From Candidatus Woesebacteria bacterium (GTDB taxonomy: Bacteria > Patescibacteriota > Microgenomatia > UBA8517): a DNA stretch of 64,000 bases. The notes below the pieces were generated by a model. That model worked only from the letters and a program-made list of their open reading frames with translations, did no database searches and was not told where the DNA came from. The position numbers and the translations under genes are program-made. The stretch is from the NCBI GenBank assembly GCA_003484955.1, contig DMZH01000003.1, positions 112,387-176,386 on the forward strand. The letters run 5' to 3'. Of the stretch, positions 17,573-35,300 are shown piece after piece (the first letter of the stretch is position 1; every line of letters begins with the position of its first letter).

Positions 17573-17573
17573 A

Positions 17574-18629
17574 TCAGAAAATCTCAACTATTTTGGCAAA
17601 CCACCAAGTCAGAGGATAGCATACATATAGTATTAGTTTACCGAGGGCCGGCAAAACGAGTCCCAACATTCCCCCTAAAACACCAAAAATCATAATATAT
17701 GGCACCGTCCAAAGAACAAGCGCATTAATTATTGGCGAAAGTATGTTAAATTGTCCAAAAGTAACAAAAAGTATCGGCGCAACCCCGATTTGAGCCGCAA
17801 ATGAGGTTGAAAAGCCTTCCTTCAATACTTTAGGTATAAATTTTAGCCGTTTGGCAATCCTTTTTTCAAAAACCATGATTGAAGCGGTGGAAACAAAAGA
17901 CAAAATGAAGCCGATGTCCCCTATCCAGGAAGGTTCCACTGCAAGCATAATACCTGCGGCAAAAAACAGGTTTCTCCAAGCACTAAGAAGTCTGCCGGAG
18001 CTTTCTGCCCAAAAAGCCAAGAAGGCCATGATTGCTGCCCTTATTAAAGGTGCTTCAAAACCTGAAAGAAACAGATACAAAATAATACTTAATATAACAA
18101 TAGGTTTCGCCTTTTTTCTGGACAGGAAAATATTTGTTACTCCGAAAATAAACGAAATAACAAAAGTAACATTAGTTCCCGATGCAACAATTACATGAGC
18201 AACCCCCGTACTTTTTACTTTGTTCCAAAAATCGCCGGTCAGGGTTCCTTTACTTCCCAAAGTTATACCGGCAACAAGCCCCGACATTGGTTGGGGTAAA
18301 ACTTTTTGGTAAAAATCGATAATCTTAGCTCTTACCCGAGATCCAAACCCCACAAAAGAATTAACCGAAAGCAGTTTTGCATTTTTTAGTTTTCCGCCGT
18401 CAACTGTTCCTTCAACCACAACTATACTTCCGTAATACACCTCGGGGAAATTTGGTAAGGAAACTTTTAATCCCGCAACGGTAAAAGTTTGATAATTGCC
18501 GTAAACCAAGGGATCCGAAAAGACTGTTGCTGTTATCCGAATGGTATCACCATTTTTATAAGCCGGACGGGTCGTAAAGTAACGGAAAATTATTAGTAAA
18601 ATCAATAAAAGCCAAACAAAGTACTTCAT
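17574..18629 (-). CDS. comEC: ComEC/Rec2 competence channel, membrane portion (DUF4131 plus competence domain).
   Basis: N-terminal TM and OB-like region followed by a polytopic 'Competence' membrane domain. The MBL part is in the adjacent, separate ORF. Confidence 0.7.
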   Translation of the reverse strand: MKYFVWLLLILLIIFRYFTTRPAYKNGDTIRITATVFSDPLVYGNYQTFTVAGLKVSLPNFPEVYYGSIVVVEGTVDGGKLKNAKLLSVNSFVGFGSRVRAKIIDFYQKVLPQPMSGLVAGITLGSKGTLTGDFWNKVKSTGVAHVIVASGTNVTFVISFIFGVTNIFLSRKKAKPIVILSIILYLFLSGFEAPLIRAAIMAFLAFWAESSGRLLSAWRNLFFAAGIMLAVEPSWIGDIGFILSFVSTASIMVFEKRIAKRLKFIPKVLKEGFSTSFAAQIGVAPILFVTFGQFNILSPIINALVLWTVPYIMIFGVLGGMLGLVLPALGKLILYVCYPLTWWFAKIVEIF

Positions 18630-18681
18630 GAATTACTAATATGAGCATTGGTTATTCATTAGATAATTTTAAAATTAGAAA

Positions 18682-19323
18682 TTAATAGACCGTTATGTTG
18701 TTTTTAATCTTTTCGTATAATGTTTGGGTGATTGCCCCACTAGTTACCAGATCTTCCGGTTTTGAGTACGGACGGTGTTCAGTAATCTTTTGGGCGTAAG
18801 TAGGGCCAATTCCGGGCAACGAATCAAGGTCTTGAAGGGTCGCTGTATTGATGTTTACTAATGCATTACTATCGGTTGAAAAACTTGATGATACACTTTG
18901 ATCCCCTACTGTGGTTTTAGCACTTAAGACATTTGAGTGCTCACTAACCGACGGTATATAAATCTTTTGTCCATCAGTGAGTTTTGCTGCCCTGTTTAAA
19001 TATTTGTCTGCCCAAACCCTATCGGCATCAACAGAAAAACCGCCGGAGGCAATTAATAAATCGTCTATCCGACTTCCAGGAGAAAGTTTATAAACTCCGG
19101 GAATTATCACCTCCCCTGAAATTTCCGCGGTAATTTCAGATGTTGCTCCCCCCTCCGAAGAAGTCTGTAAAATTTCCACTTTTGTTGATGAAAAATTCAA
19201 TGATTTTTTAAAAAATAAAAAGCCGGCACTAATCAAAATAATTCCTATCAGAGCAATTAATAGGTGATAGCGATATTTTAGAAGAAACCCGTCAAAATAA
19301 AACTTTTGGGGCAAGTTCTCCAT
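18682..19323 (-). CDS. comEA: Competence protein ComEA (membrane-anchored helix-hairpin-helix DNA-binding protein).
   Basis: N-terminal TM, an SLBB-like region and a C-terminal HhH (NINTATLQDLDSLPGIGPTYAQKITEHR). Confidence 0.85.
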   Translation of the reverse strand: MENLPQKFYFDGFLLKYRYHLLIALIGIILISAGFLFFKKSLNFSSTKVEILQTSSEGGATSEITAEISGEVIIPGVYKLSPGSRIDDLLIASGGFSVDADRVWADKYLNRAAKLTDGQKIYIPSVSEHSNVLSAKTTVGDQSVSSSFSTDSNALVNINTATLQDLDSLPGIGPTYAQKITEHRPYSKPEDLVTSGAITQTLYEKIKNNITVY

Positions 19324-21700: not shown

Positions 21701-22426
21701 ATGCTATCTGTATCTAAAAAAGTGTTTGTCCACAGTATACTGGTTGCTCTCGCCTTGGGACTTTCTTATTTTATTGCAAAAACTCCCCTTGCGGAATATA
21801 GCCTTCAAATCTCGGGTCTTCTTGTCGCACTCTATATGTTAATCTCATTTCTGATCAGAAAAAAGTTCCTAACAGCCGGTTCCAGAGTAGTTTTTGATAT
21901 TTTTATTTTTTCCTTTGCTGTTTCATTTCTTCTTTTTACAACGGGTGGGTTCACCTCACCCATATTTTTTCTGACTTACTTTCTTCTTTTCGGAATGGCA
22001 CTTCTTTCGGCACCTGTAACATCAGTTGTTGCCGCCCTGGTCTTTGCGATTTTATTTGTTCTTACACCCAGAAGTGACTTTTGGACAGAAATCCTGCAAA
22101 TAGTTTCCCTTATAGCAATCGCACCGATTTCAACAATGTTTGGCAAACAGTACATTCAAATTTTAAGAGACAGTCAAAAAATTCAGGTTTTGAAAAATGT
22201 CAGTCAGGATTTTATGGAGGAAATTAAATCACAAGAAGAAGAGGTAAAAAACTGGGCAGAGGGAGATTTTAGACTAAAACTGGTTAACGTCCAAAAATAT
22301 CTCGACGAGCTTTTGAAAGACCCAAACCTGGATAATGATAGGAAAGGTAGAATCAAAGATCTTTATCAACAAATTTACGAGCTCTTTTTAAGCGGAATGG
22401 AGATGAAAAAAGAGGTCGGTAAATAA
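21701..22426 (+). CDS. Hypothetical polytopic membrane protein with a C-terminal coiled coil.
   Basis: About 6 TM helices, then a charged helical tail. No motif was found. Confidence 0.45.
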   Translation: MLSVSKKVFVHSILVALALGLSYFIAKTPLAEYSLQISGLLVALYMLISFLIRKKFLTAGSRVVFDIFIFSFAVSFLLFTTGGFTSPIFFLTYFLLFGMALLSAPVTSVVAALVFAILFVLTPRSDFWTEILQIVSLIAIAPISTMFGKQYIQILRDSQKIQVLKNVSQDFMEEIKSQEEEVKNWAEGDFRLKLVNVQKYLDELLKDPNLDNDRKGRIKDLYQQIYELFLSGMEMKKEVGK

Positions 22427-22427
22427 C

Positions 22428-23165
22428 ATGGCATCCTCAAAAATTTTAGTTTTTTTGACAGCATTACTTTTACCTTTTAGTTTTTACCTTTCACCGCCCG
22501 GTATCCATGCCCAGGCAAAAATCACATCCCCCAATTACATAATCCAGATGCCAAATTTGAACTCAGGTGCCGGAATCCCCTCCTCGGCAGGTTATAAACT
22601 CGATACAACCATTGGTCAAACCGCACCCGGGCTTTACTCATCCACAGGCTACCTGGTTCGGTCCGGTTTCCAATATATCCACTCCATAATTCCCTTTTCT
22701 TTTTCCATGAGTAATTTTTTAATTAATTTTGGCACCCTCATGCCGGGTACCCCAGTAACCCGCACAAGTACTCTTGTGGTTTCTGCGGGAGGGGCTGGTG
22801 GTTACAGGGTTACGGCCAGAGAGGCAGGCTATCTTCAGACATCAACCGGTAAAACTATTCCTGATTCAACCTGTGATGCCGGAACTTGTTCAGAAACGGC
22901 AGCGGGGGTTTGGTCACTCGCGACTACTTACGGATTTGGCTACAACATGTCAGGCAACGATGCCCCTTCGGATTTCATAGACGGAACTTATTTCCGCCAG
23001 TTTGCCAATGCGGCTCTCAGCGAAGGAGATCAGTCGGTCATGTCAAGTGTAAATGTCGGAAGAGATAGAACTGCCACAATTACATATAAAGTAAATGTTT
23101 CGGCGGTTCAGGCGGCAGGAAGTTATCAAAACAGGGTTCTATTTACAGCCATACCATCCTTTTAA
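22428..23165 (+). CDS. Secreted cell-surface protein, a WxL-like C-terminal-domain candidate (CscB-like).
   Basis: Signal peptide. The C-terminal module TCDAGTCSET..GVWSLAT..GFGY...AGSYQNRVLFTAIPSF is shared with ORF 24230..25726. Confidence 0.5.
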   Translation: MASSKILVFLTALLLPFSFYLSPPGIHAQAKITSPNYIIQMPNLNSGAGIPSSAGYKLDTTIGQTAPGLYSSTGYLVRSGFQYIHSIIPFSFSMSNFLINFGTLMPGTPVTRTSTLVVSAGGAGGYRVTAREAGYLQTSTGKTIPDSTCDAGTCSETAAGVWSLATTYGFGYNMSGNDAPSDFIDGTYFRQFANAALSEGDQSVMSSVNVGRDRTATITYKVNVSAVQAAGSYQNRVLFTAIPSF

Positions 23166-23183
23166 ATTTCCAGTCAAATACTA

Positions 23184-24173
23184 ATGAATAAATTATTAAA
23201 ATTCAAAAATAAAAAAATAAAGGGCAGGTTTTTTGTTTTCTTGATTACTCTTATTTCATTGTTCATTATTCATAATTCTGTTGCTGAGGCCCAAACTCTA
23301 GGTCTTTCCATCACTCCCCCGATTGCTGAGGTAATGATTATTCCGGGCAAAATTGTTACTCAAACGTTCACTATTACAAATGACGGCAACGATGGCATGG
23401 CGAGCATTTATATCATACCTTTTAAGGCGCAGGGTGAGTCGGGAAACGTCGCACTTGATGAAAAAAATGCCGTCACTGCAACATCTCCCTATGCCTCATG
23501 GTTTAGTATAATCTCTCCTGTAAGTGTTTTCGGAGAAAAGTTTTACATGGCTGGCGGGCAACGCCAGGAAATAACCGTTAAAATTACTCCCCCGGAATCT
23601 GCCACAGAGAAAGATTATTACTTTACACTATTATACGAACTGGATAACAATATCCCCGGAGGCACTCTCTCCATGGGTCCAACAAACCAAGCTAGAATTG
23701 GTTCCAACCTCATTCTTTCCGTCTCCAGCGACGGCAATCCGCCAAAGACTGCTGAAATTGTCGAATTCAAGGCTCCAAAAATCATCGATTCGCTTGAAAA
23801 ACTTACCTTTAATACAAGAATCGGCAATTTTGGCTCATATGTTTTCAAACCCGATGGTGAAATAACAATTAAACCCACATTCGGCAGTGTAGAAACTCTA
23901 AGTCTTGCCCCTCTTAATATAATTTCCGACTCGGTAAGGAATATTCCCTGCCTGAAAGGTGAAGAAATTATCGTTTGCCAATCCAATCGCAAGGTCTTGG
24001 TCGGAGTTTACAAATCAACCTTGGAGATAACCCCCAACGGAAGCGGTGAAACTCAAAGTAAAACTGTTACCACCGTTGCCTTTCCTTTTTCGATAATATT
24101 TGGGCTTCTTTTAATCTTCATAACCTACAGAATTATCAAAAAATCCCAAAAGGTTGGCAAAGAATCCTCTTGA
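23184..24173 (+). CDS. Cell-surface protein with signal peptide and a C-terminal TM anchor plus basic tail (DUF916/CscA-like).
   Basis: Signal peptide, beta-rich ectodomain (LGLSITPPIAEV...TFTITNDG) and C-terminal TM plus RIIKKSQKVGK. Confidence 0.5.
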   Translation: MNKLLKFKNKKIKGRFFVFLITLISLFIIHNSVAEAQTLGLSITPPIAEVMIIPGKIVTQTFTITNDGNDGMASIYIIPFKAQGESGNVALDEKNAVTATSPYASWFSIISPVSVFGEKFYMAGGQRQEITVKITPPESATEKDYYFTLLYELDNNIPGGTLSMGPTNQARIGSNLILSVSSDGNPPKTAEIVEFKAPKIIDSLEKLTFNTRIGNFGSYVFKPDGEITIKPTFGSVETLSLAPLNIISDSVRNIPCLKGEEIIVCQSNRKVLVGVYKSTLEITPNGSGETQSKTVTTVAFPFSIIFGLLLIFITYRIIKKSQKVGKESS

Positions 24174-24229
24174 CAATGTTTTTTATGGGTTTAATAATGA
24201 TCCTTAGCACATATCTTAACTAAGATAGA

Positions 24230-25726
24230 TTGTTTTGTATGCAAAGCGTAAACACAAAAAAATATCTAGCTACTTTTTCAGTGTTTCTTCTATCGTTATC
24301 ATTCTCCCTGGCGCTTTCTTTTTTCGCCATCAAATCTTTTAATCCAACCAAGATAGAGGCGTCCACTCTCACAAATTCATCGGCTACCTTAAGCAATCCC
24401 CGGCTTTCCTATAGGGCACAAACAACTGCCGGCACGTCAGGAACATCAACGGTCACAATCAACGGCGCCGGAAGTTATCCGGATCTTAATACCAACCACC
24501 TCTTTCCAAGCGACAACGTTTGTTTCTTAAATCAAGGTATAACCGGGTGCATCGGCAGTGTTAACTACACGGTTGCAAACGTATCCAGTGCCACAACTTT
24601 CAGCCTTTCCTCCCCACTCACTGCCAATGTTGATACAAGCGGCTATGTTACGGCGACACAATCGGGAAGCCTGACAATGACTTTCACTTTGGTTAATACA
24701 ATTCCTGTCGGGGGCAACATTTTTGTTACCATACCGGTTGCCAGCACCGGAAATGTCAATGATGGAATTCCGGACACAGGGAGTAGTAATACAACTGACG
24801 GCTTTGATTTTAACAAGCTCGAACCGACAAGTGTCAATGTCAGCTCAACAGGCGGGACCTGCACCGGCGGCTGGGATACTCCGGTAGTTGCCTCCGCAAG
24901 CGGAACAATAACCATTACAAAAGCAACCAGTTCTTGTGCGGGTGCAACCGTTACGGTAATAGTTCCCAACTTGGTCAACCCCACCCCATTTACCACCGGA
25001 CACACACAAGGAGCTGCCGACAATTACAAAATCGCAATAGTTACGAGGGACGGCAGCAACAACACCCTTGATTCTGTAAGTGTGGGGGTGGCTCCCGTTG
25101 AGGGAGTTTTGGTCTCAGCAACAGTTGATCAGACTCTTGCCTTTACAGTTGCCGGGGTTTCTGCAGATTCAGGTTCGTATTGTGGAGTAACCAGAACTGC
25201 TTCGACAACGGATTCAACGGCCACATCTGTTCCTTGGGGAACAATTGCCACCGCCAACAGTTTCCTAAATGCCAACCAGGTATTAACCGTATCAACAAAC
25301 GCCGGCGGTGGCTACACCGTCAAGATTGAAGAAAACGACCAAATGGGCATGAACGGGGTTACCTGTACGGGAGCAACTGCGGGTGAGGCAAACGATTGTA
25401 TCAAGGATACTACTTGCGATTCGGGAACCTGTTCGGAAACAACATCCGGCGAATGGGTTACCGCGACCAATAACGGTTTTGGATATTCGCTTGCAAACGT
25501 GTCAGGAACCGATGCTGGATTCCTCTATAACGAAACCTCAAGGACGTTTTCCTCAAAACAAATTCCGGATCAGGAAGCTTCTGAGGCAAAACAAACCGTG
25601 ATGTCAAACGCGGCCCCGGTTTCCGCTAACCAAGTGTATGCCTGTTATAGAATTTCAGTTTCAGGAACCCAACCTGCTGGTTACTACTACAATAAAGTCA
25701 AATACACGGCAACAGCCACATTCTAA
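24230..25726 (+). CDS. Large Thr/Ser/Gly-rich secreted surface protein with a WxL-like C-terminal domain (CscC-like).
   Basis: Signal peptide and low-complexity T/S/G-rich ectodomain. The C-terminal TCDSGTCSET..GEWVTAT..GFGY...AGYYYNKVKYTATATF is paralogous to the 22428 ORF C-terminus. Confidence 0.5.
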   Translation: MFCMQSVNTKKYLATFSVFLLSLSFSLALSFFAIKSFNPTKIEASTLTNSSATLSNPRLSYRAQTTAGTSGTSTVTINGAGSYPDLNTNHLFPSDNVCFLNQGITGCIGSVNYTVANVSSATTFSLSSPLTANVDTSGYVTATQSGSLTMTFTLVNTIPVGGNIFVTIPVASTGNVNDGIPDTGSSNTTDGFDFNKLEPTSVNVSSTGGTCTGGWDTPVVASASGTITITKATSSCAGATVTVIVPNLVNPTPFTTGHTQGAADNYKIAIVTRDGSNNTLDSVSVGVAPVEGVLVSATVDQTLAFTVAGVSADSGSYCGVTRTASTTDSTATSVPWGTIATANSFLNANQVLTVSTNAGGGYTVKIEENDQMGMNGVTCTGATAGEANDCIKDTTCDSGTCSETTSGEWVTATNNGFGYSLANVSGTDAGFLYNETSRTFSSKQIPDQEASEAKQTVMSNAAPVSANQVYACYRISVSGTQPAGYYYNKVKYTATATF

Positions 25727-25728
25727 CT

Positions 25729-26817
25729 ATGAAAAATCTGCTCACAAAACATACTAAACACAAATTTGTTTATTTGGTTGCCGGCCTAGTAATTTTTATC
25801 GCCTTATTTGTTTCAGATAAAGCATCAGCACAATCAATCATTCCCCTGGTGGTTGCCCCCGCAAGACAAACAATTGAAGTCGATCCAGGCAAGACCACGA
25901 GTTTTGTCGTCAGATTTTACAACACAGGGATAGAACCTATCTCCGGAACGTTTAAGGTGGCTGATTTTATTGTGGACAACAACGAGGGTTCTCCAAACTT
26001 TCTTGAAGGCCCCACTACTCTGTCCAAACGCTTTGCGGCAGCCCAATGGGTGACCCTAAGCACCGAAAAAGGAACAATCCCCTCAAAAGATATGGTTATA
26101 ATTGACGGCAAAATTCGTGTTCCGGCTGACGCAAACCCCGGCGGAAAATATTTCGCGGTATTTTTTGAGCCCACTTCCGAGATTCCTGAAGCCACCGGGT
26201 CAAAACAAGAGGAAGCCGCAAGCGTATCAATGAGAATTGCAGGACTTGTCTATCTGAAAGTGTCGGGCCCTATTGCCGAAGGCGCCAATATCGTAAGCTT
26301 TAGTGCCCCCAACTTCTCCGAATACGGCCCTGTCGCAATCACAACCGAAATCAAAAATAGCGGAGACTATCACATCACTCCTAAGGGGCAAATTGTTGTT
26401 AAGAATATGTTTGGCCGTGAAGTTGCCAGAGAAAGCTTGCAGGAAACCAACATTTTTCCGGATGCCTCAAGGGTAATTGTTTCCAAACTCGGAACAAAAT
26501 GGATGGTTGGTAAGTTCACCGCGTCTCTTGATGCCACCTATGGGGAATCGGGAAAAGTTCTCGCCTCCGCTCTCGGCTTCTGGGTATTTCCCTGGAAGCT
26601 TGCTGTAGTTATAACCTTGGCAATTATCATAATTGTACTTATCATAATCATTATCTTTAACAGATTTGTTAAAAAGGAAAAGAAGCTCGAAGAGGAGCTT
26701 TCCGAGGAGAAAGAAGAACTTGAAAAACTCAAAGAGTCTTTGAAAGATAAGATCAGCGGAATAATTCCGGAGTCCAAAGTTGAAACTCCATCAACTGAAG
26801 AAAAAAAGACTGAATAA
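25729..26817 (+). CDS. Cell-surface protein with signal peptide, C-terminal TM anchor and K/E-rich cytoplasmic tail (DUF916/DUF3324-like).
   Basis: Start is 2 bp after the preceding stop. Ectodomain PLVVAPARQTIEVDPGKTTSFVVRFYNTG. C-terminal TM plus KKEKKLEEELSEEKEELEKLKE. Confidence 0.5.
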   Translation: MKNLLTKHTKHKFVYLVAGLVIFIALFVSDKASAQSIIPLVVAPARQTIEVDPGKTTSFVVRFYNTGIEPISGTFKVADFIVDNNEGSPNFLEGPTTLSKRFAAAQWVTLSTEKGTIPSKDMVIIDGKIRVPADANPGGKYFAVFFEPTSEIPEATGSKQEEAASVSMRIAGLVYLKVSGPIAEGANIVSFSAPNFSEYGPVAITTEIKNSGDYHITPKGQIVVKNMFGREVARESLQETNIFPDASRVIVSKLGTKWMVGKFTASLDATYGESGKVLASALGFWVFPWKLAVVITLAIIIIVLIIIIIFNRFVKKEKKLEEELSEEKEELEKLKESLKDKISGIIPESKVETPSTEEKKTE

Positions 26818-26834
26818 CGTAATATAATTAATCA

Positions 26835-27773
26835 GTGAAACTTAAATTTGCCCTGCTGTTTTCAGTATTATTTCTTTTGCTTGAGACTAGGATCGTACAT
26901 GCTGATGTTCTACCCTCAGAAAAGGTCATTGTGAAACCCAATGTAATCGTTTCTGCGACCATCGGAACCCCAAGGATGACTCTCTGGGGGTATGGCGCTC
27001 CTTCCAGTGTTATAGAGCTTTCAGGTATTGGTGTAGACCAATCTGTAGTCTCCGGAGCAAACGGATACTATTCTTTTGACTTGGTATATTTAAACACTTC
27101 TTTCCCCGAGCTTTGCGTTACGGCAATTGACCAGGGAAAAAGGATAACTCCCCCAACCTGCATTCCCCCGATCGGTCACGGAAATTACTTTTATAACGTC
27201 GGCCCTGTAATACTCCCTCCTACAATAAGCCTGGGAACACCCCAAACCAATGAGAACGGTCAGGTCTCAGCCCAAGGCGAAACAATTCCTAATTCAAATG
27301 TTGAAGTTAAACTGGGCAGACCGGATGCAAAGCCGGGAATTTTTGGTTTTCAGCCGATTAGAAGTGTTCTTGCCTACTATATACCATCGTATAGCGTCCT
27401 TTCGGATGCCGAAGGAAACTTTAGTTTCAATATGCCTACCAATGGAGGCAATTCCTGGAGAGTTTTTGCCATAACCGACTACGAAGGAGGAAATAAATCC
27501 CCAAAAAGTAATACCCTTAAGTTTAAAACCCTTACGCCGGCTGCTTACGCGTGGAGTAATTTTTTGGCATTTCTTGCAACTTTCCTCGTCTGGCCGAGAA
27601 TTATAATCCTGGAGATTTTGGTAATACTAATTTTGATAGGTATCGTCCTGACAATTATCAAAAGGAAAAAGGGAAAAAACAAAAAAATGGAAACTAATAA
27701 AAAGGATCAAAAGTATTCAGAGCTTGTCGAAAGATATCAGGAGTTTCTAAAAAAGACAAAACCTATTCAATAA
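26835..27773 (+). CDS. Membrane-anchored surface protein (signal peptide, Ig-like beta ectodomain, C-terminal TM plus basic tail).
   Basis: Signal MKLKFALLFSVLFLLLETRIVHA. C-terminal TM plus KRKKGKNKK. Confidence 0.45.
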   Translation: MKLKFALLFSVLFLLLETRIVHADVLPSEKVIVKPNVIVSATIGTPRMTLWGYGAPSSVIELSGIGVDQSVVSGANGYYSFDLVYLNTSFPELCVTAIDQGKRITPPTCIPPIGHGNYFYNVGPVILPPTISLGTPQTNENGQVSAQGETIPNSNVEVKLGRPDAKPGIFGFQPIRSVLAYYIPSYSVLSDAEGNFSFNMPTNGGNSWRVFAITDYEGGNKSPKSNTLKFKTLTPAAYAWSNFLAFLATFLVWPRIIILEILVILILIGIVLTIIKRKKGKNKKMETNKKDQKYSELVERYQEFLKKTKPIQ

Positions 27774-28277
27774 TTAGTTGAATGAAACAGTCACCTTTTG
27801 ACTTAATTTTTTGCTACCCACAGATGCCTCAATTGTAAAAAGACCTGCCTCTGTACTTGAAACATCAAAGGTTGCCCTACCGGAATCATCGGTCACCGGG
27901 GAAATCGGATATATCTGCAGGCTTGTATTACCGTTTCCGAGGATAACCTGCTTTCCGGATACCCCCATTCCCTGTCCGTCCAGAATATAAGCAGTAATTC
28001 TAATACGCTCAACCTTTGCTGCCGCCCTCAGAGGCGAAGCGAAAAGGTAGGAATTGTCAAACGATACACTTTGTGGTGTAATGACTTCGGAGTCGGTGGG
28101 CTCAGAAGTGAAATTCTCACTTTGAGCAAAGCTCCCAAAAAACGCAGGCCGGCGGACTAAATAAAGGAAGAGAATAAGGATCAAAACAAAAATAATCAAA
28201 AGAATCAAGGCTATTATGACTGTACGGGAATTTTTGCTACGCTCTTCCATATAGTAATTATATACACCGGATGTCAA
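27774..28277 (-). CDS. N-terminally membrane-anchored protein with a Big/Ig-like domain.
   Basis: N-terminal TM (IIALILLIIFVLILILFLYLV). The C-terminus resembles a bacterial Ig-like fold (GQGMGVSGKQV...FTIEASVG). Confidence 0.4.
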   Translation of the reverse strand: MTSGVYNYYMEERSKNSRTVIIALILLIIFVLILILFLYLVRRPAFFGSFAQSENFTSEPTDSEVITPQSVSFDNSYLFASPLRAAAKVERIRITAYILDGQGMGVSGKQVILGNGNTSLQIYPISPVTDDSGRATFDVSSTEAGLFTIEASVGSKKLSQKVTVSFN

Positions 28278-28719: not shown

Positions 28720-28755
28720 TTGACAGGCCAATCCCCCTTTACAATAATGTATAAT
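28720..28755 (+). promoter_or_regulatory. Promoter-like element upstream of the fibre operon (TTGACA ... TGTATAAT).
   Basis: TTGACA at 28720-28725 and TATAAT at 28750-28755 preceded by TG, about 35 nt before the ATG at 28790. The -35/-10 spacing of 24 nt is non-canonical, so likely only the extended -10 is functional. Confidence 0.3.
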
Positions 28756-28789: not shown

Positions 28790-29308
28790 ATGCAATTAAT
28801 CAGCGATAATACAATAAAAAAATTTCTTAATAATCTTCAGGATCAGGGAAAGTCTTTAGTTTCAATTAAAAATTACAAATCCGATATTAACCACTTTTTA
28901 GCCTGGGCAATACTTAAACTTAAATCTCTCGGATCCTACGCGGATAATGTTATCGAGCTTACTCCATTCATCAACCGGGATTTTTTCAATGAATACAAAA
29001 GCTATATGGTTGAGAACAACATCAAGGTAAAAACAATCAACAGACGCCTGTCTTCACTTAGAAACTTATCCAATTTTCTTTACTCCTCCCAAGCTCTGGA
29101 CAGGGATTACATGCAGGGAATTCAAAATGTCGGCATCGGAACATTGACTCCTATGCGGGTAAAAGATCGGGATATTGTTGAGAGGTTCAGGGAATCTCTT
29201 ATCAAGGACGAAAATGTTTCTTCTAATACAGTCAAGAATTATGTTTCCGATGTAAGAGGCTTTCTAGCCTGGATTGAAAAGAAAGGAGAACTGCCCAATG
29301 GGATTTAG
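28790..29308 (+). CDS. Protein made of 1.5 tandem phage-integrase N-terminal SAM-like (core-binding) domains with no catalytic domain. Probably the frameshifted 5' part of the downstream giant gene.
   Basis: Half-domains 'SLVSIKNYKSDINHFLAWA' + 'KVKTINRRLSSLRNLSNFLY' and 'SSNTVKNYVSDVRGFLAWIEKKG' match the Phage_int_SAM_1 pattern (S.nT...Y..d...Fl.w / s..Tinrrlsalr.f..fl). Confidence 0.6.
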   Translation: MQLISDNTIKKFLNNLQDQGKSLVSIKNYKSDINHFLAWAILKLKSLGSYADNVIELTPFINRDFFNEYKSYMVENNIKVKTINRRLSSLRNLSNFLYSSQALDRDYMQGIQNVGIGTLTPMRVKDRDIVERFRESLIKDENVSSNTVKNYVSDVRGFLAWIEKKGELPNGI

Positions 29309-32300
29309 GAAAGTAGTATCAGACCACATCAAAAAGTATCGAAGTGAAGTATTAAAGGATTCTTCAGCCTCAACTTTCGATAGGAAAATGTTCTCACTCA
29401 AGAAATTCTTTGAATGGACAGTTAAAGAAGGATATCTGGATGAAAATCCGGTGGAATCATTCTTACGGGAAGAGCAGGAAACAGTCAAAACAAAGCTCGG
29501 AAAAATTGAGAGACAAAAAAAGCTAAATCCTCCATCCTACGGCTCAGCTCAATCTAGAATTGTCGCAAAATTTGCGGGAAAACCCAAGCTTCAGAAGCTT
29601 GCCTACAATCTTTTTTATGCCAGACCTAAATGGTATAAATCATATCACAATCTACCAATTGCCAGTTATTTCAACTATGCAATTCTTGTTCTTTTGATGT
29701 CCAGCCTTGGTTTTGGAGTATATAATCAATTCTTCAAAACCACCTCCGGTTCCCTTGCCTACCCAACCTCCCTAACCCGTGCCGGAAGGTATTTATCTTT
29801 TCAGGGAAGATTAACCAACAATCTAGGGAATCCCATCACAACTGCAACCAACCTGGTTTTCAAACTCTACAGCGTTGATACGGGTGGGGCGGCCCTTTGG
29901 AACTCCGGAACTTGTTCGATTACACCCGACACCGACGGAATCTTCTCTACTCTTTTAGGAAGCTCCTGCGGAACTGAAATTGCATCATCTGTATTTAGCG
30001 AAAACTCTGCCATTTGGCTTGGAGTGACTGTGGGAGTAGACGCCGAGGCTACTCCAAGAGTGCAAATCGCAACAGTTGCCTATGCTATTAATTCCGAAAC
30101 ACTTCAGGGTTATCCGGCCAGTTCCTCCGCAACAGCCAATACGGTTCCCGTGATGAATAACCTGGGACAAATTGTCTTGGCAGCCGCTTCCCCCAAAATG
30201 CAGTCTACAAGCGGCACTTTTGCTATTGAGGGACAGGCACTAACCATCACGACACCGGATGCTTCCAACGGATCAATCGCTATCAATCCGGATGGAACCG
30301 GCACACTTAATCTTATTTTCGAAGGAGCCGCCCCGGGAGGGGGCGCTGGAGGTTTTGTCAATGCAACCAATGCCAATATAACATCGGGAGCTCTTTATTT
30401 CGGACAGGTTGCCAGTAATGCCACAGGGTATAATCTTTTGCAACTTAAAAGCGGTGCAACCCCAACAGATAAATTTGTAGTTGACTCAGGAGGAAACGTA
30501 ACCGCGGCAGGAACATTTAACGGATTAACGGTTTCCAGCGGAACAATTTCAAGCGGTACCTGGAACGGAACCGCCATTTCAACGACATACGGCGGAACAG
30601 GACAAAATTGGTCGGGAGTGGCTCAAGGATCTCTTCCCTATTTCTCAGCAACAGGAACAATGTCTACCCTCTCTCCCGGAACTTCAGGCTACGTTCTTAC
30701 AACCCAAGGAGCTTCAGCCGATCCAACCTGGACAAGTGCTTCCTCAGTTGGAACAAATTACTGGAATCTTGGAACAGGAACAATATACCCGGGTAACACC
30801 ACGCTTGATTTACTTTTGGGTGCCAGTGCCACAACCAGTGCCAAGTTTGCATTCAAAAATGTTTTAACAGGAACTCCAACGGCCAGTATCTCCGGTTCCA
30901 CCGCTAATGTAGCGACATTCATTGACGGGAATGGCAATATTTCAACAACCAACAGAGCTGATTTAGTGCTTGGCAACTCCGCTACCTACAACTCAACAGG
31001 AAATATTCTTCTTAATCCAAACGGGATTGGATATGTTGGAATTGGGACAACAACACCCTTATATCCTTTAAGCATAGTCGGAACAGCCCCCAATGTTGCT
31101 ACGGGGCGTGTAGTTGATATCGATGGTACTTTATCTTCTACAACGAATGACCAAATTGGTTTAAAAGTATCTCCAAGTGTTTTACCAACTGCTTCAACCA
31201 GCAGGACCTACTCCGGTTTACAACTGTCGCTTTCCGGAAACAGCACAACCAGGCTTACCAATGCTGAATTTCGAGGCATTGAAGGATATGTCAGTTTCAG
31301 CGGAGCATCAGGTTCTTTGGGTACAGGAATTGGTATAAGATCTAGGGTTAATAATACCTCTACAGGTACAATTACTAACGCATATTCTACATATATTGCC
31401 ACCCCAACAAATACGGGAACAATAACCAATACTTATGGTTTATATGTTGATACCCAAACCGTAGGAACTCAAACAAATGCGCCTTTTGCAATATATCAAG
31501 CAGGAACAACAAACAAAAACTACTTTGCAGGCAATGTTGGTATCGGTACCACCTCCCCCACTGTCGAACTTGATGTAGCAGGAGCTGCTTCAATATCAGG
31601 ATCTTTAACTTTCAGAACGGGTGCAGGATCAATCCAAACTACAGCCTTTAATCCACTAACAGTTGGGGGGTCAACTACAGGAAATATCACACTTAATCCA
31701 AGTAACGCCGTATCGGATGGGTATGTGGCACCTGCAGCAAATGGCGTAACCAATCTTGGTACAGCTTCTCTACTTTGGAAAGATGTATACGCATCAGTTC
31801 TTCATCAAGGAGCAAATCTAGTTTGTGATTCAAGCGGTGCCAACTGTCCGGCAGGAGCAGTTTCTTATTGGGGACAGGCTGCGGGAGCCATATATACACT
31901 CAATAATACCGCCGATGTACTCATCGGAGCCACCGCAACGACTTCTGCAAAGTTTGCATTTAAGAATGTGTTAACAGGTACCCCAACCGCTTCAATATCC
32001 GGTTCAACCGCTAATGTTGCTTTGTTTATGGACGGTAATGGCAACATTTCTACAACAAACAGACAAAATTTAGTACTTGGAAATTCAACAACATATGACA
32101 CAACAGGAAACATTCTCCTAAACTCCAATGGAACCGGAAATGTTGGTATCGGCACCACTTCCCCCACCGCACTTTTAGATGTTGCAGGGGCTGCTTCCGT
32201 ATCGGGATCGCTCACATTTAGAACTGGGGCAGGTTCGATCCAAACAACAACATTCTCCCCGATTGCAATCGGCGGTTCAACAACAGGAAATATCACACTT

Positions 32301-35300
32301 AATCCAAGCAATGCGATAGCAGGGGGTTATGTCGCCCCCAATACAACCAATATGTCAGATTTTGGAACCGCTTCCCTACTTTGGAGAAATATATATGGAA
32401 CAACCCTATACCAAGGAGCTAACCAGGTTTGTGATACAAGCGGTAACTGTTCGGCAGCTACTGATATCTGGAGTATTGCCGATGGAGCACTTTATCCGAA
32501 AAATACTTCCGTAGATCTATTACTTGGATCAACCGCAACCACAAGTGCTAAATTTGCACTTAAAAATGTTTTATCTGGTGTTCCTACCGCCTCAATTTCA
32601 GGAAGCACGACAAATGTAGCCACATTCATTGACGGAAATGGCAACATTTCTACAACCAATAGAGCTAACTTGGTGCTTGGAAACTCCGCAACTTACAACA
32701 CAACAGGCAACGTTTTGATTAATCCAAACGGAACCGGAAGAGTCGGTGTAGGAACAACCACACCCAACTCTGCACTTGAAATATATAGTGCTGCTGGTGG
32801 AATTAATGATTATATAGGCCTTAAAAGAGGTGGTACAGATTGGAGAATCTGGGTAAGTGATGGAACCACAGGAACAGCATCGTTAAGAATAGGTGGAAAT
32901 GCGGTGGATAGTTATGCCTGGCAATTTGATTGGACCGGAGCAGCCGCAAATCTTTTTAAGTCTCCCAATGGTGAGGCGGGCCAAATCCCATTGGCTGTAA
33001 GGGCTGCCGGTGCTCAAACAGCAAATATATTTGAAGCCCAAAACTCTGGCGGCACTGCTCTGTTTTCTGTGGGTAGTACCGGAAATATCACAGCAGCCGG
33101 TGTAATTAATGCAGGTGGACTTAGTGGCGTTGCATACAATGCCCTTGCCGGAGGTGGCGATACTCCCGCTGCCACGGCTGCTATCACCACTTCAAACGAT
33201 TTATTTATAGGCGGAGATGCTGAAATTAAAGGCGGACTCTATTTAACCGGCAAAAATATTTTTAATGTTGTCAGCGGAGTTGCAACATCGACAATTTCTC
33301 TGGCCCAAAATCCGGCTACTATAAACAATTACAATGCTTTAAGTTACGGAAGCTGGCTTGTAAACAATAGTACAAATAACGGTATAGCAGCTCTCATGGT
33401 AAACCAAAGCAAAGGTGGAGATATTTTTACTGCCAGTGCTTCAGGATCACCAAAATTTGTAATTGATAACTCCGGTAATGTTGGAATAGGTACAACAGGG
33501 CCAAGAAATGGGCTGGAACTAGCCAAGCTTGACAGCAACTACATAACGAGTTTAAGGGTTGGAGGGATTTTGCAAGGAACTACAGCTGTTGCTATTGGAG
33601 CTGAGACATCCAGACATCAAATTCTATTCTCAAGCTGGAGAGATGTTCAAACGAATACTGTTGGCGCTAAAATAGCAGCTATAAATTGGAATAATTATGC
33701 ATTAAATAATCCTTTAGTTCAAAATACTGATTTGGCATTCTTTACCCTTGGAACTACTCCGGGATCAACTGACGCTACTACTGAAAAAATGCGCATTACT
33801 GCAGCGGGCAACGTCGGTATTGGTACAACTAGTCCAGTATCTAAATTAGATGTGATAGGTGCTCAAAATAACACAATAACTTCTACTAATTCCATCGTTA
33901 AGTTTTTAGGTGATGACGCGGGCATTCATATTGGTAATTTAGCTGGAACTCCAAGTTATGGTGCTTGGTTACAGGCGATGAGAGCCGATAATTTTGCATT
34001 CCCATTATTATTAAACCCACTTGGCGGCAACGTCGGCATCGGGACAACGAGCCCGAGTTACCGGCTCACTTTGGGAGGTACCAGCACTGTGTTTGGGATA
34101 GAAAATGCAACTGCATTCGCAGCCAAAAATTCTGTTGGAGGCTACGAAAATTACCTCTGGCCTCGCTGGTCTGACAATGTTACATATCTAAATTTTGGGT
34201 CAGCTGGATTTAATATCCGAAACAACGGATCTTCGTCAGTGATGGTTATGCAGAATACCGGCAATGTTGGAATTGGGACGACAAGTCCGGATACAAAACT
34301 TGAAATCAACGGATATGCAGATACTTTAAGCGCATTGACTCTTGATGTTGCCCATGGTACATATTTCGTTGAACTTGATCGAAATGGAACCAAAGTTGCA
34401 GATATTTATAAGAATACAAGCGGACCGCTTATTTTTGAGTCTTTTGCGGCTGGGAGTACAACGGCAGAGTTTTCGTTTTCTGGCGGCAAAGTGAATGTCA
34501 CCGGAACAACTACTTACTCAATAACCGGACCTTTTTCGGGAGCCACTGCCAATGCTGCTTGGACAACCGGTTTTGCAACCCAAAATATAAGCACCAGTAT
34601 CCTTGCCAGTGGGGCTTTAGTAGCCAATGGTGTTTTCTCTGCGTCAGACCAACGACTAAAAGAAAATATTGATCAGATCAATCCGGAGATGGTGAATGAC
34701 TTCATGCAAAACATCATTCCTGTTGGCTTTAACTGGAAAAGGGATGGTCTTTACAATACAGGTTTTGTCGCTCAGGATCTTATTCGTAAAGGTTTTGGTT
34801 ATTTAGTAAAAGCCACACCGGATGACAGCATCAGTCAAAGCATTGATGAGGATGGTTTTATAAGTCCGGCAGGGTTCCAATATAACGTTGACTATCAAGC
34901 AGTTGTTCCTATTTTAACCTACGCTTTACAGCAGCAACAAGCTCAAATTGCCTCTCATTCTTCCCAACTGGCTAATCTAGCTCTTACTTCCGATGGAGAT
35001 TTATTGATAGAAGAATCAACTAATGACGGATATTTGGTCCAAAAGACAGATGGAAGTGTTATTTCACAAATTGCTGCTTTAGCCGAAATGGTTATTGCCA
35101 ACATCAAAGCAGGAGCAATTGTCACGGAAGATCTGGCTACCAGTTCCTTTACTGCTTTCCAGGGAACGGTTGATAATATGCTTGTAAAGTCCGGGCTTGT
35201 CTCACCAATTGTCCAAACTGCCCTCATCTCTCCTCTTCCCGGTGACACTGATGTAACTGTCCAAATCGGATCGGTAGCTACCCCTTCCGGACAATTTGCT

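What the first reader, a model, noticed from the sequence alone, without database searches (positions are those of the whole stretch)
22428..27773. Five-gene cell-surface cluster resembling a csc/WxL-type surface complex locus
Five consecutive plus-strand genes, with gaps of 2 to 56 bp between them, encode secreted proteins. Two (22428..23165 and 24230..25726) share a conserved C-terminal module: TCD(A/S)GTCSET..G.W...T..GFGY ... VMS ... AG.Y.N.V.(F/Y)TA...F-COOH. Three (23184.., 25729.., 26835..) have a signal peptide, a beta-rich ectodomain, then a C-terminal TM and a Lys-rich tail. This layout matches Gram-positive csc clusters. There, CscB/CscC carry a C-terminal WxL wall-binding domain (one copy here has GVWSLAT) and CscA (DUF916) is C-terminally membrane-anchored. 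Such a locus has not, to my knowledge, been highlighted in small-genome lineages, and the shared C-terminal domain may be a divergent wall-binding module.
Basis: inference. Interest (0 to 1): 0.6.

Follow-up and report, generated by a model that had tools for sequence, protein, structure and literature searches.

The report
Pam-type pilus operon in Woesebacteria

Summary
Five tightly spaced plus-strand genes (22428-27773) encode secreted proteins. g1 and g3 share a C-terminal domain of about 150 aa (BLAST E=1e-20; profile-profile 99.6%). g2 and g4 are paralogues. g2, g4 and g5 have C-terminal TM anchors.

The best fit is the Pam pilus operon of Candidate Phyla Radiation bacteria (Troman et al., bioRxiv 2026), not a WxL/Csc locus:
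- g1 matches NCBIfam PamT over its full length (E=1.7e-11, below the naming cut-off) and also Pam_pilin_C.
- 43/80 g3 relatives hit Pam_pilin_C.
- The g4 model is a two-Ig fold plus a TM helix, matching chaperone-usher chaperones.
- g5 fits the PamR anchor by sequence features only; it was not modelled.
- The set co-occurs in 91-97% of related Microgenomatia loci.

The WxL domain and the dual WxL motif are absent (0/134 family members). However, g4's top solved-structure match is E. faecium WxLIP (DUF916 protein), and 40/81 g4 relatives weakly hit the DUF916 model. The Pam paper does not draw this link.

ComEA/ComEC genes are linked to the cluster in 53/57 loci. Filament formation and donor-strand exchange are inferred, not shown. 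Verdict: new member of a known kind, moderate interest.

The parts
21701..22426 (+). g0: membrane protein with about 5 TM segments and a C-terminal cytoplasmic helical region. It ends 1 nt before g1. Possible accessory or regulatory part; role unknown.
   Evidence: ORF. Hydropathy shows 5 TM-like segments. No significant Pfam or NCBIfam family. A homologue lies directly upstream of g1 in 38/57 loci with enough flank.
22428..23165 (+). g1: PamT-like tip subunit. It has a signal peptide, a conserved N-terminal segment of about 65 aa and the shared C-terminal domain (residues about 98-245). It has no linker-type strand motif.
   Evidence: NCBIfam NF058579 CPR_pilus_PamT, E=1.7e-11, aligned 11-245 to 8-241/241 (44 bits, cut-off 240). 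NF058581 Pam_pilin_C, E=1.6e-7. CTD homologous to the g3 CTD. The V-x-V-S-A-T motif is absent. Present upstream of g3 in 52/57 loci. The superfamily has 1,939 clusters at 50% identity.
23184..24173 (+). g2: membrane-anchored chaperone-like protein 1, paralogue of g4, with a C-terminal TM and a basic tail. Probably partners g1. An alternative start gives 310 aa.
   Evidence: Paralogy to g4. TM at residues 295-313. The conserved strand 'ARIGSNLILSVSSDG' sits at the equivalent of g4's G1-like position. Present in 52/57 loci. Fold is inferred from g4; g2 was not modelled.
24170..24198 (+). Promoter-like site TTGACA-17-AATAAT (11/12) in the only sizeable intergenic gap, just upstream of the major pilin gene.
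   Evidence: The total number of promoter-like sites in the region is not above chance, so only the position is suggestive.
24230..25726 (+). g3: PamA-like two-domain major pilin. The true start is probably ATG at 24239, giving 495 aa. Layout: signal peptide, N-terminal beta domain (residues about 45-286), linker (287-302), C-terminal domain (303-498).
   Evidence: AF2 model pLDDT 88.6, all-beta, with a confidence dip at residues 291-300. 43/80 relatives hit NF058581 Pam_pilin_C. 10 conserved Cys. 54% identical to a Ca. Roizmanbacteria protein, the lineage from which the Pam paper took its structurally confirmed PamA homologue. Weak fold hits to CfaE, CupB6 and TasA fibre.
25088..25135 (+). 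g3 inter-domain linker 'VAPVEGVLVSATVDQT' (residues 287-302), the inferred donor strand.
   Evidence: Conservation 0.83, against 0.67 for the NTD and 0.70 for the CTD. E291 and V293 are invariant in 80/80. Low pLDDT and no assigned strand in the monomer model. The paper states that the donated linker is among the most conserved parts of PamA/B.
25729..26817 (+). g4: membrane-anchored chaperone-like protein 2. Layout: signal peptide, two Ig-like beta-sandwiches (40-148, 170-286), TM plus a long cytoplasmic helix (289-345). A disordered loop (154-166) precedes the conserved strand 'IAGLVYLKV' (170-178).
   Evidence: AF2 pLDDT 82.4. Foldseek PDB: WxLIP 9i1y/9i25 E=3e-12, CfaA 4y2o 2.6e-10, then CsuC, YadV, DraB, Caf1M, EcpB and CupB2. 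PF06030 sub-threshold in 40/81 relatives. Conservation. Present in 58/60 loci.
26835..27773 (+). g5: PamR-like terminator/anchor (inferred). Layout: signal peptide, N-terminal extension carrying 'NVIVSATIG' (residues 36-44; window 26940-26966), two prealbumin/Ig-like beta-sandwich domains, C-terminal TM and a Lys-rich tail.
   Evidence: Weak CarboxypepD_reg, Big_6 and Big_1 hits in 27, 10 and 6 of 52 relatives. TM at 241-278. The motif [VI]x[VI]SA[ST][IV] occurs only twice in all six frames of the window, here and at the g3 linker. Family motif. Present in 56/60 loci. No structure model was made.
27774..28277 (-). g6: N-terminally anchored Big_1 (invasin/intimin-type Ig) protein, convergent with g5. 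A conserved neighbour; its membership of the system is unproven.
   Evidence: Pfam Big_1, E=6.5e-12. TM at 20-38. Present in 56/60 loci.
28790..36218 (+). g7 (28790-29308, SAM-like integrase N-domain only) and g8 (29274-36218, 2314 aa): a giant tail-fibre-like surface protein with a Peptidase_S74 endosialidase-chaperone domain. Conserved neighbours.
   Evidence: g8 is present in 43/48 loci and g7 in 38/48. The Pam paper reports a tail-fibre-like protein as a consistent neighbour of pam operons.
16694..19323 (-). ComEC MBL domain (16694-17587), ComEC membrane domain (17574-18629) and ComEA (18682-19323). These DNA-uptake genes are linked to the cluster across Microgenomatia.
   Evidence: Pfam Competence, Lactamase_B and HHH_3/SLBB. 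Orthologues sit inside the cluster, between g2 and g3 on the same strand, in 28/57 loci, and upstream on the opposite strand in 22/57.

Best explanation
This is a Microgenomatia (Ca. Woesebacteria) version of the CPR-specific Pam pilus operon. It would build a surface filament by chaperone-assisted donor-strand exchange, without an usher or an outer membrane.

**Proposed mechanism**
1. All five proteins are exported by Sec (shown: signal segments).
2. The two-Ig chaperones g2 and g4 stay tethered in the membrane by their C-terminal TM (shown: fold and TM). Each lends its last domain-1 strand (IGSNLILSV / IAGLVYLKV, which follows a flexible loop) to complete the incomplete Ig-like C-terminal domain of a subunit (inferred).
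3. g1, which has that domain but no linker strand, starts the fibre as the tip (inferred).
4. Copies of g3 are added. The conserved inter-domain linker (VLVSATV) of each incoming g3 displaces the chaperone strand in the C-terminal domain of the previous subunit (inferred).
5. g5 inserts its similar N-terminal strand (VIVSATI) into the last g3. Because g5 has no acceptor domain but does have a TM anchor, it ends growth and ties the fibre to the membrane (inferred).

Gene order and the split seen in related loci suggest two modules: tip (g0-g1-g2) and shaft/anchor (g3-g4-g5). The likely role is contact with a host cell or a surface.
For: **Sequence link to Pam**
- g1 hits NF058579 PamT at E=1.7e-11 over the full length, and NF058581 Pam_pilin_C at E=1.6e-7.
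- A Roizmanbacteria orthologue gives the same hits.
- 43/80 g3 relatives hit Pam_pilin_C.

**Match to the published operon parts**
- A single-domain tip plus a two-domain pilin sharing the CTD.
- Two paralogous PapD-like chaperones with a C-terminal TM.
- A C-terminally anchored protein of tandem beta-sandwiches with an N-terminal extension.
- A tail-fibre-like neighbour.

**Lineage**
- The window is from Woesebacteria. The paper reports PamA homologues in Microgenomatia, structurally confirmed in Roizmanbacteria. g3 is 54% identical to a Roizmanbacteria protein.

**Donor-strand signature**
- The linker and the C-terminal strand are among the three most conserved stretches of g3.
- The linker is the low-confidence part of the monomer model.
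- The strand motif occurs only at the g3 linker and the g5 N-terminus in the whole window.
- The chaperone strand after the disordered loop is a conservation peak in both chaperone families.

**Co-occurrence**
- g1 and g2 in 52/57 loci, g4 in 58/60, g5 in 56/60.
Against: - NCBIfam scores are far below the curated naming cut-offs (44 vs 240 bits; 31.5 vs 55). The window's own g3 does not reach E<=1 against Pam_pilin_C.
- No direct comparison with M. amalyticus PamA/B/C/D/R was possible. Entries 25PZ/25QA are not in the PDB copies searched, and the supplement has no sequences.
- g2, g4 and g5 hit no Pam-specific model.
- g5 was not modelled, so its 'PamR-like' status rests on topology, weak domain hits and a short motif. 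That motif also resembles the N-terminal strand of the g3 NTD, so it could be an ordinary first strand.
- There is only one two-domain pilin here, against PamA, PamB and PamE in M. amalyticus.
- No ATP-synthase neighbours, unlike the published neighbourhood.
- No filament has been observed in any Microgenomatia organism.
Confidence: 0.78

Rival explanations
1. A WxL/Csc-type cell-surface complex. The small (g1) and large (g3) subunits would be held at the cell surface by WxLIP-like membrane proteins (g2, g4) as a non-filamentous adhesion or substrate-binding complex. The chaperone-like strand would stay permanently inserted and there would be no polymerisation.
For: - g4's best PDB match is WxLIP, including the entry with bound long WxL.
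- PF06030/DUF916 is hit by 40/81 g4 relatives in a consistent register.
- The small + large + two-Ig-TM architecture equals the published definition of a WxL cluster.
- WxLIP is predicted to complete the WxL sandwich with a strand.
Against: - No WxL domain hit in 134 relatives and no dual WxL motif.
- No DUF3324 and no LPXTG partner.
- The A2 profile does not reach WxLIP or WxL sequences in the PDB.
- The CTD matches the Pam pilin model instead.
- The very strongly conserved inter-domain linker, and its look-alike on g5, are explained by polymerisation but not by a static complex.
Confidence: 0.12
2. A set of unrelated or loosely related secreted Ig-fold surface proteins (adhesins or envelope/S-layer-like components). 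They would be conserved together by genome synteny, with no chaperone-subunit relationship, and g2/g4/g5 would simply be membrane-anchored adhesins.
For: - Ig-like two-domain models match many adhesins (FnBPA, SdrG, RbmA) at similar E-values.
- CPR genomes keep long syntenic blocks, and even leuS and comEC are conserved nearby.
- No assembly step was demonstrated.
Against: - g1 gives a specific, full-length hit to the PamT model.
- g4's ranked hits are dominated by pilus chaperones and WxLIP with the best TM-scores (0.47-0.57), against 0.34 for RbmA.
- The paired layout is subunit-chaperone, subunit-chaperone, anchor.
- A duplication of the pilin gene within the cluster is seen in L049.
Confidence: 0.07
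3. A sortase-dependent (Gram-positive type), type V or TasA-like fibre.
For: A weak TasA-fibre fold hit (8aur, TMt 0.35). A weak GBS104 tip-pilin Ig hit in 6/54 g1 relatives.
Against: - No LPXTG-like sorting signal at any C-terminus; g1 and g3 end in ...SF / ...TF.
- No Pfam or NCBIfam family, sortase included, was detected for any of the five cluster genes or the three adjacent ORFs scanned.
- No lipobox.
- The two chaperone-like genes are not part of those systems.
Confidence: 0.03

Closest known systems
Pam pilus system of Ca. Mycosynbacter amalyticus (Saccharimonadia): PamT, PamA/B/E, PamC/D, PamR (Troman et al., bioRxiv 10.64898/2026.03.03.709456; NCBIfam NF058579, NF058581)
   Same: - CPR host.
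- A Sec-exported single-domain tip, and a two-domain pilin sharing a C-terminal truncated-Ig domain.
- A conserved linker strand and disulfide-rich pilins.
- Two PapD-like chaperones with a C-terminal TM helix.
- A C-terminally anchored tandem-beta-sandwich protein with an N-terminal strand.
- No usher, and a tail-fibre-like neighbour.
- g3 (about 50 kDa) is in the size class of PamA (55.3 kDa).
   Different: - Sequence similarity is remote and sub-threshold for the NCBIfam cut-offs.
- Only one two-domain pilin, with no PamB or PamE equivalent in the window.
- The genes are arranged as alternating subunit and chaperone genes (g1-g2-g3-g4) followed by g5.
- The neighbourhood has ComEA/ComEC, leuS, a Big_1 protein and g0, not ATP synthase, CorB or MFS.
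- No experimental filament data exist for this lineage.
WxL / Csc cell-surface clusters of Lactobacillales and Listeria: small WxL, large WxL, WxLIP = DUF916-DUF3324-TM (PMC1534035, PMC9772566, PMC10599100; PDB 9i1y, 9i25)
   Same: - Monoderm envelope.
- One small protein that is only the shared C-terminal domain, and one large protein with N-terminal domain(s) plus the same C-terminal domain.
- A two-Ig protein with a C-terminal TM, whose flexible loop is predicted to become a strand completing the partner's sandwich.
- g4 has its best PDB fold match here, plus weak PF06030 signal.
   Different: - No WxL domain or WxL motifs.
- No DUF3324 signal and no LPXTG partner.
- Two WxLIP-like genes rather than one, plus a dedicated anchor (g5).
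- WxL proteins are thought to bind peptidoglycan and are not known to polymerise.
- Different phylum.
Chaperone-usher pili of Gram-negative bacteria (Pap/Fim, CFA/I, Csu, Caf1)
   Same: - Two-Ig chaperone fold: CfaA, CsuC, Caf1M and others at E=1e-7 to 1e-10.
- Tip-shaft-terminator logic.
- The inferred donor-strand complementation and exchange.
- The C-terminal strand pattern of the subunits.
   Different: - No usher and no outer membrane.
- Chaperones are membrane-tethered rather than soluble.
- The donor strand is an inter-domain linker rather than an N-terminal extension.
- Pilins have two domains.
- No Pfam PapD_N, PapD_C or Fimbrial hits, apart from 1/51 weak.

Membership tests
CPR Pam pilus system (broad sense, as used by Troman et al. 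2026 for Saccharimonadia and Microgenomatia) | A single-domain tip subunit (PamT) homologous to the C-terminal domain of the pilins | tested here: met
   g1 vs NF058579 PamT: E=1.7e-11, aligned 8-241 of 241. g1 CTD vs g3 CTD: hhalign 99.6%.
CPR Pam pilus system (broad sense, as used by Troman et al. 2026 for Saccharimonadia and Microgenomatia) | [quoted passage not shown] | tested here: met
   AF2 gives an all-beta two-domain model with a low-confidence linker. 43/80 relatives hit NF058581, best 1.3e-5. The linker is highly conserved. The open groove of the CTD was not inspected directly.
CPR Pam pilus system (broad sense, as used by Troman et al. 2026 for Saccharimonadia and Microgenomatia) | PapD/FimC-like chaperones carrying a C-terminal transmembrane helix (PamC, PamD) | tested here: met
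   The g4 model has two Ig domains plus helix 289-345. It matches CU chaperones and WxLIP. g2 is a full-length paralogue with a TM.
CPR Pam pilus system (broad sense, as used by Troman et al. 2026 for Saccharimonadia and Microgenomatia) | RbmA-like tandem beta-sandwich protein with an N-terminal strand and a C-terminal TM (PamR) | tested here: inconclusive
   g5 has a signal peptide, a C-terminal TM, weak CarboxypepD_reg/Big hits and an N-terminal motif like the g3 linker. No structure model and no comparison with PamR or RbmA was possible.
CPR Pam pilus system (broad sense, as used by Troman et al. 2026 for Saccharimonadia and Microgenomatia) | Assembly into helical filaments by donor-strand exchange | not testable with these tools
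   Needs multimer prediction or cryo-EM.
NCBIfam equivalog/domain naming (NF058579 PamT; NF058581 Pam_pilin_C) | Score at or above the curated cut-off (240 bits; 55 bits) | tested here: not met
   g1 scores 44 and 31.5 bits. g3 gives no hit at E<=1. The proteins would therefore not be auto-named PamT or Pam pilin; they are distant relatives.
WxL / Csc cluster | At least two proteins with a C-terminal WxL domain (PF13731) carrying two conserved WxL motifs | tested here: not met
   0/80 and 0/54 family members hit PF13731 at E<=10. 0/134 have two WxL motifs.
WxL / Csc cluster | WxLIP: DUF916 (PF06030) + DUF3324 (PF11797) + a C-terminal TM helix | tested here: inconclusive
   The fold is the top PDB hit: 9i1y/9i25, E=3e-12. 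PF06030 appears in 40/81 g4 relatives at 13-22 bits, below the 27.3 cut-off, and maps residues about 46-146 to model positions 21-120. It appears in 0/51 g2 relatives. DUF3324 was never detected. The A2 profile does not hit WxLIP sequences in the PDB. The TM helix is present.
WxL / Csc cluster | An accompanying small LPXTG protein (CscD; frequent, not obligatory) | tested here: not met
   No C-terminal LPXTG-type signal in any cluster protein.
Chaperone-usher pili | An outer-membrane usher, with soluble periplasmic PapD-family chaperones detectable by PF00345/PF02753 | tested here: not met
   No Pfam or NCBIfam family, usher included, was detected for any of the five cluster genes or the three adjacent ORFs scanned. 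PapD_N is hit by only 1/51 g2 relatives. The chaperones are membrane-anchored.
Sortase-dependent pili | An LPXTG sorting signal on the pilins and a cognate sortase | tested here: not met
   No C-terminal sorting signal. No Pfam or NCBIfam family, sortase included, was detected for any of the five cluster genes or the three adjacent ORFs scanned.

The most novel reading that the evidence does not exclude
The CPR Pam operons and the Firmicutes WxL/Csc clusters are two branches of one ancient monoderm 'tethered-chaperone/subunit' system. PamC/D-type chaperones and WxLIP (DUF916) would be homologues, and the small and large subunits of both systems would be completed by a chaperone strand. This would imply that WxL proteins are handled, and perhaps polymerised, by donor-strand complementation rather than simply sticking to peptidoglycan.

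A second, less likely novel reading concerns ComEA/ComEC. Their near-universal linkage to the cluster, and their embedding inside it in 28/57 loci, could mean that the Microgenomatia Pam-like fibre works together with the DNA-uptake channel.
Probability: 0.3. Interest if true: 0.65.

Novelty: new member of a known kind. Interest (0 to 1): 0.42.

Why it matters
**Basic value.** Pam pili were identified only in 2026, in one cultured Saccharimonadia parasite. They are thought to make first contact with the host. This locus gives a compact, explicit gene-by-gene inventory of the system in Woesebacteria/Microgenomatia, a large uncultured class in which only remote PamA homologues had been flagged. 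The inventory is tip, chaperone, shaft, chaperone and anchor, with one shaft pilin only. It also assigns candidate donor strands that can be tested with peptides or multimer models.

**Two leads not made in the published description.**
- The tethered chaperone is closest in solved structures to WxLIP/DUF916 of Gram-positive WxL clusters. This could connect two poorly understood surface systems and suggests a mechanism for WxL loci.
- The DNA-uptake genes comEA and comEC travel with, or inside, the cluster in about 93% of related loci.

Neither lead is proven. Without them the finding is an ordinary, though recently defined, pilus operon.

Tried and rejected
- **Sequence search of g1 and g3 against PDB chains:** nothing relevant. 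Profiles A1 and A2 against the PDB gave no WxL, WxLIP, Pam or pilin hit.
- **Foldseek of the whole g3 model against the PDB:** only weak multi-domain matches (CfaE, MSCRAMMs, TasA). PamA/B (25PZ/25QA) are not in the library.
- **Bridging to M. amalyticus proteins:** the paper's supplement has no sequences. The homologue searches returned only unnamed proteins. A cluster look-up of 10 distant representatives gave no names or accessions.
- **ATP-synthase neighbours** (reported for pam operons): no F1 alpha/beta Walker signatures in the window.
- **More Pam-like subunits or chaperones in the window:** family HMMs find none.
- **Sortase, type V and TasA-type fibres:** considered and rejected.
- **g5 related to the pilin or to the chaperones:** no. 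The only matches are a short N-terminal strand and the TM/tail.
- **g7 related to the N-terminus of the giant protein:** not significant by BLAST.

Full report
**1. Observation**

The source contig's own gene calls agree.

- g1 and g3 share a C-terminal module of about 150 aa (38% identity, E=1e-20; family profiles 99.6%, E=1e-23).
- g2 and g4 are full-length paralogues (E=7e-14; profiles 99.9%).
- All five have N-terminal signal-like segments. g2, g4 and g5 end in a TM segment plus a basic tail. Mature cysteines come in pairs, and there is no LPXTG-type signal.
- The window is from a Ca. Woesebacteria (Microgenomatia, CPR) genome. A 100%-identical protein is so labelled, and the contig is a 750-kb assembly from a sediment metagenome.

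**2.

Pfam finds no WxL, DUF916 or DUF3324 in the window proteins at E<=1. NCBIfam instead matches g1 to 'CPR-type pilus protein PamT' (NF058579, E=1.7e-11, aligned over 8-241 of 241 model positions) and to 'Pam pilus system pilin subunit' (NF058581, E=1.6e-7). Both scores are below the curated cut-offs.

These models derive from a 2026 preprint (10.64898/2026.03.03.709456). That work solved cryo-EM structures of two pilins, PamA and PamB, from the Saccharimonadia parasite Ca. Mycosynbacter amalyticus. [quoted passage not shown] The operon also encodes:

- a single-domain tip (PamT);
- PapD-like chaperones that, unusually, carry a C-terminal TM helix (PamC/D);
- an RbmA-like, C-terminally anchored protein with an extra N-terminal strand (PamR).

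A tail-fibre-like protein is a consistent neighbour. Homologues were reported in Saccharimonadia and Microgenomatia, the latter found by language-model search and structurally checked in a Roizmanbacteria protein.

**3. Gene-by-gene fit**

- **g1** is PamT-like (above). It lacks the linker motif.
- **g3.** The family (622 clusters, none with a Pfam domain, all 'hypothetical') hits Pam_pilin_C in 43 of 80 members scanned. One member, 54% identical to g3, is from Roizmanbacteria. The AF2 model (pLDDT 88.6) is all-beta with two domains, and its confidence dips at residues 291-300.
- **g4.** The model (pLDDT 82.4) has two Ig-like sandwiches, a disordered loop at 154-166 before the last strand of domain 1, and a long TM/cytoplasmic helix. 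Its PDB matches are E. faecium WxLIP (E=3e-12), then a run of chaperone-usher chaperones: CfaA, CsuC, YadV, DraB, Caf1M, EcpB and CupB2. RbmA matches less well.
- **g2** is g4's paralogue.
- **g5** could not be modelled. Its family shows weak prealbumin/Ig-like domain hits (27/52 CarboxypepD_reg) between a signal peptide and a TM anchor.
- **The downstream 2314-aa protein** has the endosialidase-chaperone domain typical of tail fibres.

Family HMMs find no further subunit or chaperone in the window. The system here is one tip, one shaft pilin, two chaperones and one anchor.

**4. Signatures of the mechanism (inferred, not shown)**

- In g3, the three most conserved 15-residue windows are the C-terminal strand (0.93), the first strand of the NTD (0.87) and the inter-domain linker EGVLVSATVDQTLAF (0.84). 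Domain means are 0.67-0.70, and E291 and V293 are invariant in 80/80. The paper says the donated linker and its binding site are the most conserved parts of PamA/B.
- The motif [VI]x[VI]SA[ST][IV] occurs exactly twice in all six reading frames of the 64-kb window: at the g3 linker and in the N-terminal extension of mature g5. This fits the proposed role of PamR, which is to insert an N-terminal strand into the last pilin and anchor the fibre. As a caveat, the g5 motif also resembles the first NTD strand of g3.
- In both chaperone families, a conservation peak is the alternating-hydrophobic strand directly after the flexible loop at the end of domain 1 (g4 IAGLVYLKV, g2 IGSNLILSV). This is the position of the donor G1 strand in PapD-type chaperones (established knowledge of chaperone-usher systems).
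- The strongest promoter-like site (11/12) lies in the 56-bp gap upstream of g3. g3 probably starts at ATG 24239.

**5. Conservation of the set**

In 80 loci from species-representative genomes (Woesebacteria, Roizmanbacteria and other Microgenomatia), I counted only loci with enough flanking sequence. g1 and g2 are upstream of g3 in 52/57. g4 follows in 58/60, g5 in 56/60, a convergent Big_1 protein in 56/60 and the giant protein in 43/48.

Two layouts exist. One is compact, as in the window. The other is expanded, with a 3-5 kb insert between g2 and g3. This splits the cluster into a g0-g1-g2 module and a g3-g4-g5 module. One Woesebacteria chromosome carries a second g3-like pilin gene, giving the order g1-g2-g3'-g4-g3-g5.

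An exhaustive profile search with the g1 family finds 1,939 clusters at 50% identity (E<=1e-3), so the domain is very widespread.

**6. The WxL question**

The WxL domain fails every test. No PF13731 hit appears in 134 relatives, none has the defining pair of WxL motifs, and the window's 'WSL' is shared by only 9/54 relatives. DUF3324 and an LPXTG partner are also absent.

The membrane-anchored component tells a different story:

- WxLIP is g4's best solved-structure match.
- PF06030 (WxLIP_PGBD, formerly DUF916) is hit by 40/81 g4 relatives (best 2e-5).
- In 8 of 10 relatives inspected there was a hit. In six of these the N-terminal sandwich maps onto model positions 21-120 of 121. The scores are 13-22 bits, below the 27.3 cut-off.
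- g2's family shows no such signal, and the g4 profile does not reach WxLIP sequences in the PDB.

The literature defines a WxL cluster as a small WxL protein (domain only), a large WxL protein (N-terminal domains plus a C-terminal WxL domain) and WxLIP (two Ig domains plus a TM). It also predicts that a disordered WxLIP loop becomes a strand completing the WxL sandwich. This is the same logic as a tethered chaperone-subunit pair.

The Pam preprint never mentions WxL. The family assignment for the shared domain and its wall-binding role is wrong. The architecture is right, and the DUF916-like protein is plausibly right.

**7. Filing and novelty**

The locus meets the structural and architectural features of the Pam system in the broad sense used by its authors. 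It fails the NCBIfam naming cut-offs, and it cannot be tested here for filament formation. It is a new, divergent member of a known kind: a minimal single-shaft-pilin version.

It differs from the M. amalyticus operon in three ways. It has only one two-domain pilin. It has no ATP-synthase neighbours. And it has a different conserved neighbourhood.

The most notable neighbourhood feature is ComEA plus a split ComEC. In the window they sit at 16694-19323 on the minus strand, separated from the cluster by leuS. Their orthologues are present in 53/57 loci: inside the cluster on the same strand in 28, and upstream on the opposite strand in 22. The preprint does not mention competence genes. This may be mere synteny or a functional coupling, and I could not distinguish the two.

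**8. Limits**

- Only two structure jobs were available, so g1, g2 and g5 were not modelled.
- Donor-strand exchange, the pairing of chaperones with subunits, and the terminator role of g5 are inferences from sequence, one monomer model each for g3 and g4, and analogy with the published system.

Noticed in passing
window 16694-19323 (-); L012:6893-9181 (+): ComEA and a split ComEC (membrane domain plus MBL domain) are linked to the Pam-like cluster in 53/57 Microgenomatia loci. They lie inside the cluster, between g2 and g3 on the same strand, in 28 loci, and just upstream on the opposite strand in 22 (as in the window). The Pam preprint does not mention this.
   Followed up: partly
window 28790-29308 (+) and 29274-36218 (+): A 172-aa protein consists only of integrase SAM-like (core-binding) domains with no catalytic domain. 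It overlaps the start of a 2314-aa giant protein that has one TM near residue 130 and a Peptidase_S74 endosialidase-chaperone domain at 1791-1837. Both are conserved next to the cluster (38/48 and 43/48 loci). BLAST found no significant similarity between g7 and the giant's N-terminus.
   Followed up: partly
window 27774-28277 (-): A small N-terminally anchored Big_1 (invasin/intimin-type Ig) protein is convergent with g5; its stop codon abuts g5's stop codon. It is conserved at this position in 56/60 loci, so it may belong functionally to the surface module.
   Followed up: partly
window 21701-22426 (+): A membrane protein with about 5 TM segments and a helical cytoplasmic tail ends 1 nt before g1. 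It is conserved directly upstream of g1 in 38/57 loci and matches no known family. It could be a membrane platform or a regulator for the pilus.
   Followed up: partly
window 24170-24198 and 28720-28748 (+): The two best sigma-70-like sites in the region (both TTGACA-17-AATAAT, 11/12) lie immediately upstream of the major pilin gene g3 and of g7. The total number of such sites is not above chance.
   Followed up: no
L049:5669-12419 (Ca. Woesebacteria chromosome OY970314.1): A related locus carries an extra pilin gene, giving the order g1-g2-g3'-g4-g3-g5. This shows that shaft-pilin number varies within the class.
   Followed up: partly
protein P0507 (representative library; 2559 aa): A giant protein carries a full PamT-like module at its extreme C-terminus (residues 2343-2556, E=3.6e-38). 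Some lineages may therefore fuse a very large adhesin to the tip-subunit domain.
   Followed up: no
window 40145-42925 (-), 42970-44766 (-), 44775-52913 (-): A second surface-protein block lies here: a DUF7948 plus SBBP beta-propeller-repeat protein (926 aa), a 598-aa protein with no family, and a 2712-aa giant ORF.
   Followed up: no
window 22515-22718 (g1 residues 30-97): The conserved N-terminal segment of the PamT-like protein contains three short repeats of S-x-[NG]-Y-x-[ILV] (SPNYII, SAGYKL, STGYLV) and invariant G63, Q64, F81 and Y83. Its structural role, for example self-capping of the tip, is unknown.
   Followed up: no
loci L002, L008, L013-L015 and many others (record titles): Many loci that carry this clearly CPR-type cluster are titled 'uncultured Gammaproteobacteria bacterium' (or Omnitrophota, Nevskiaceae, Pseudomonadales) in their public records. 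These are probably mislabelled MAG taxonomy.
   Followed up: no
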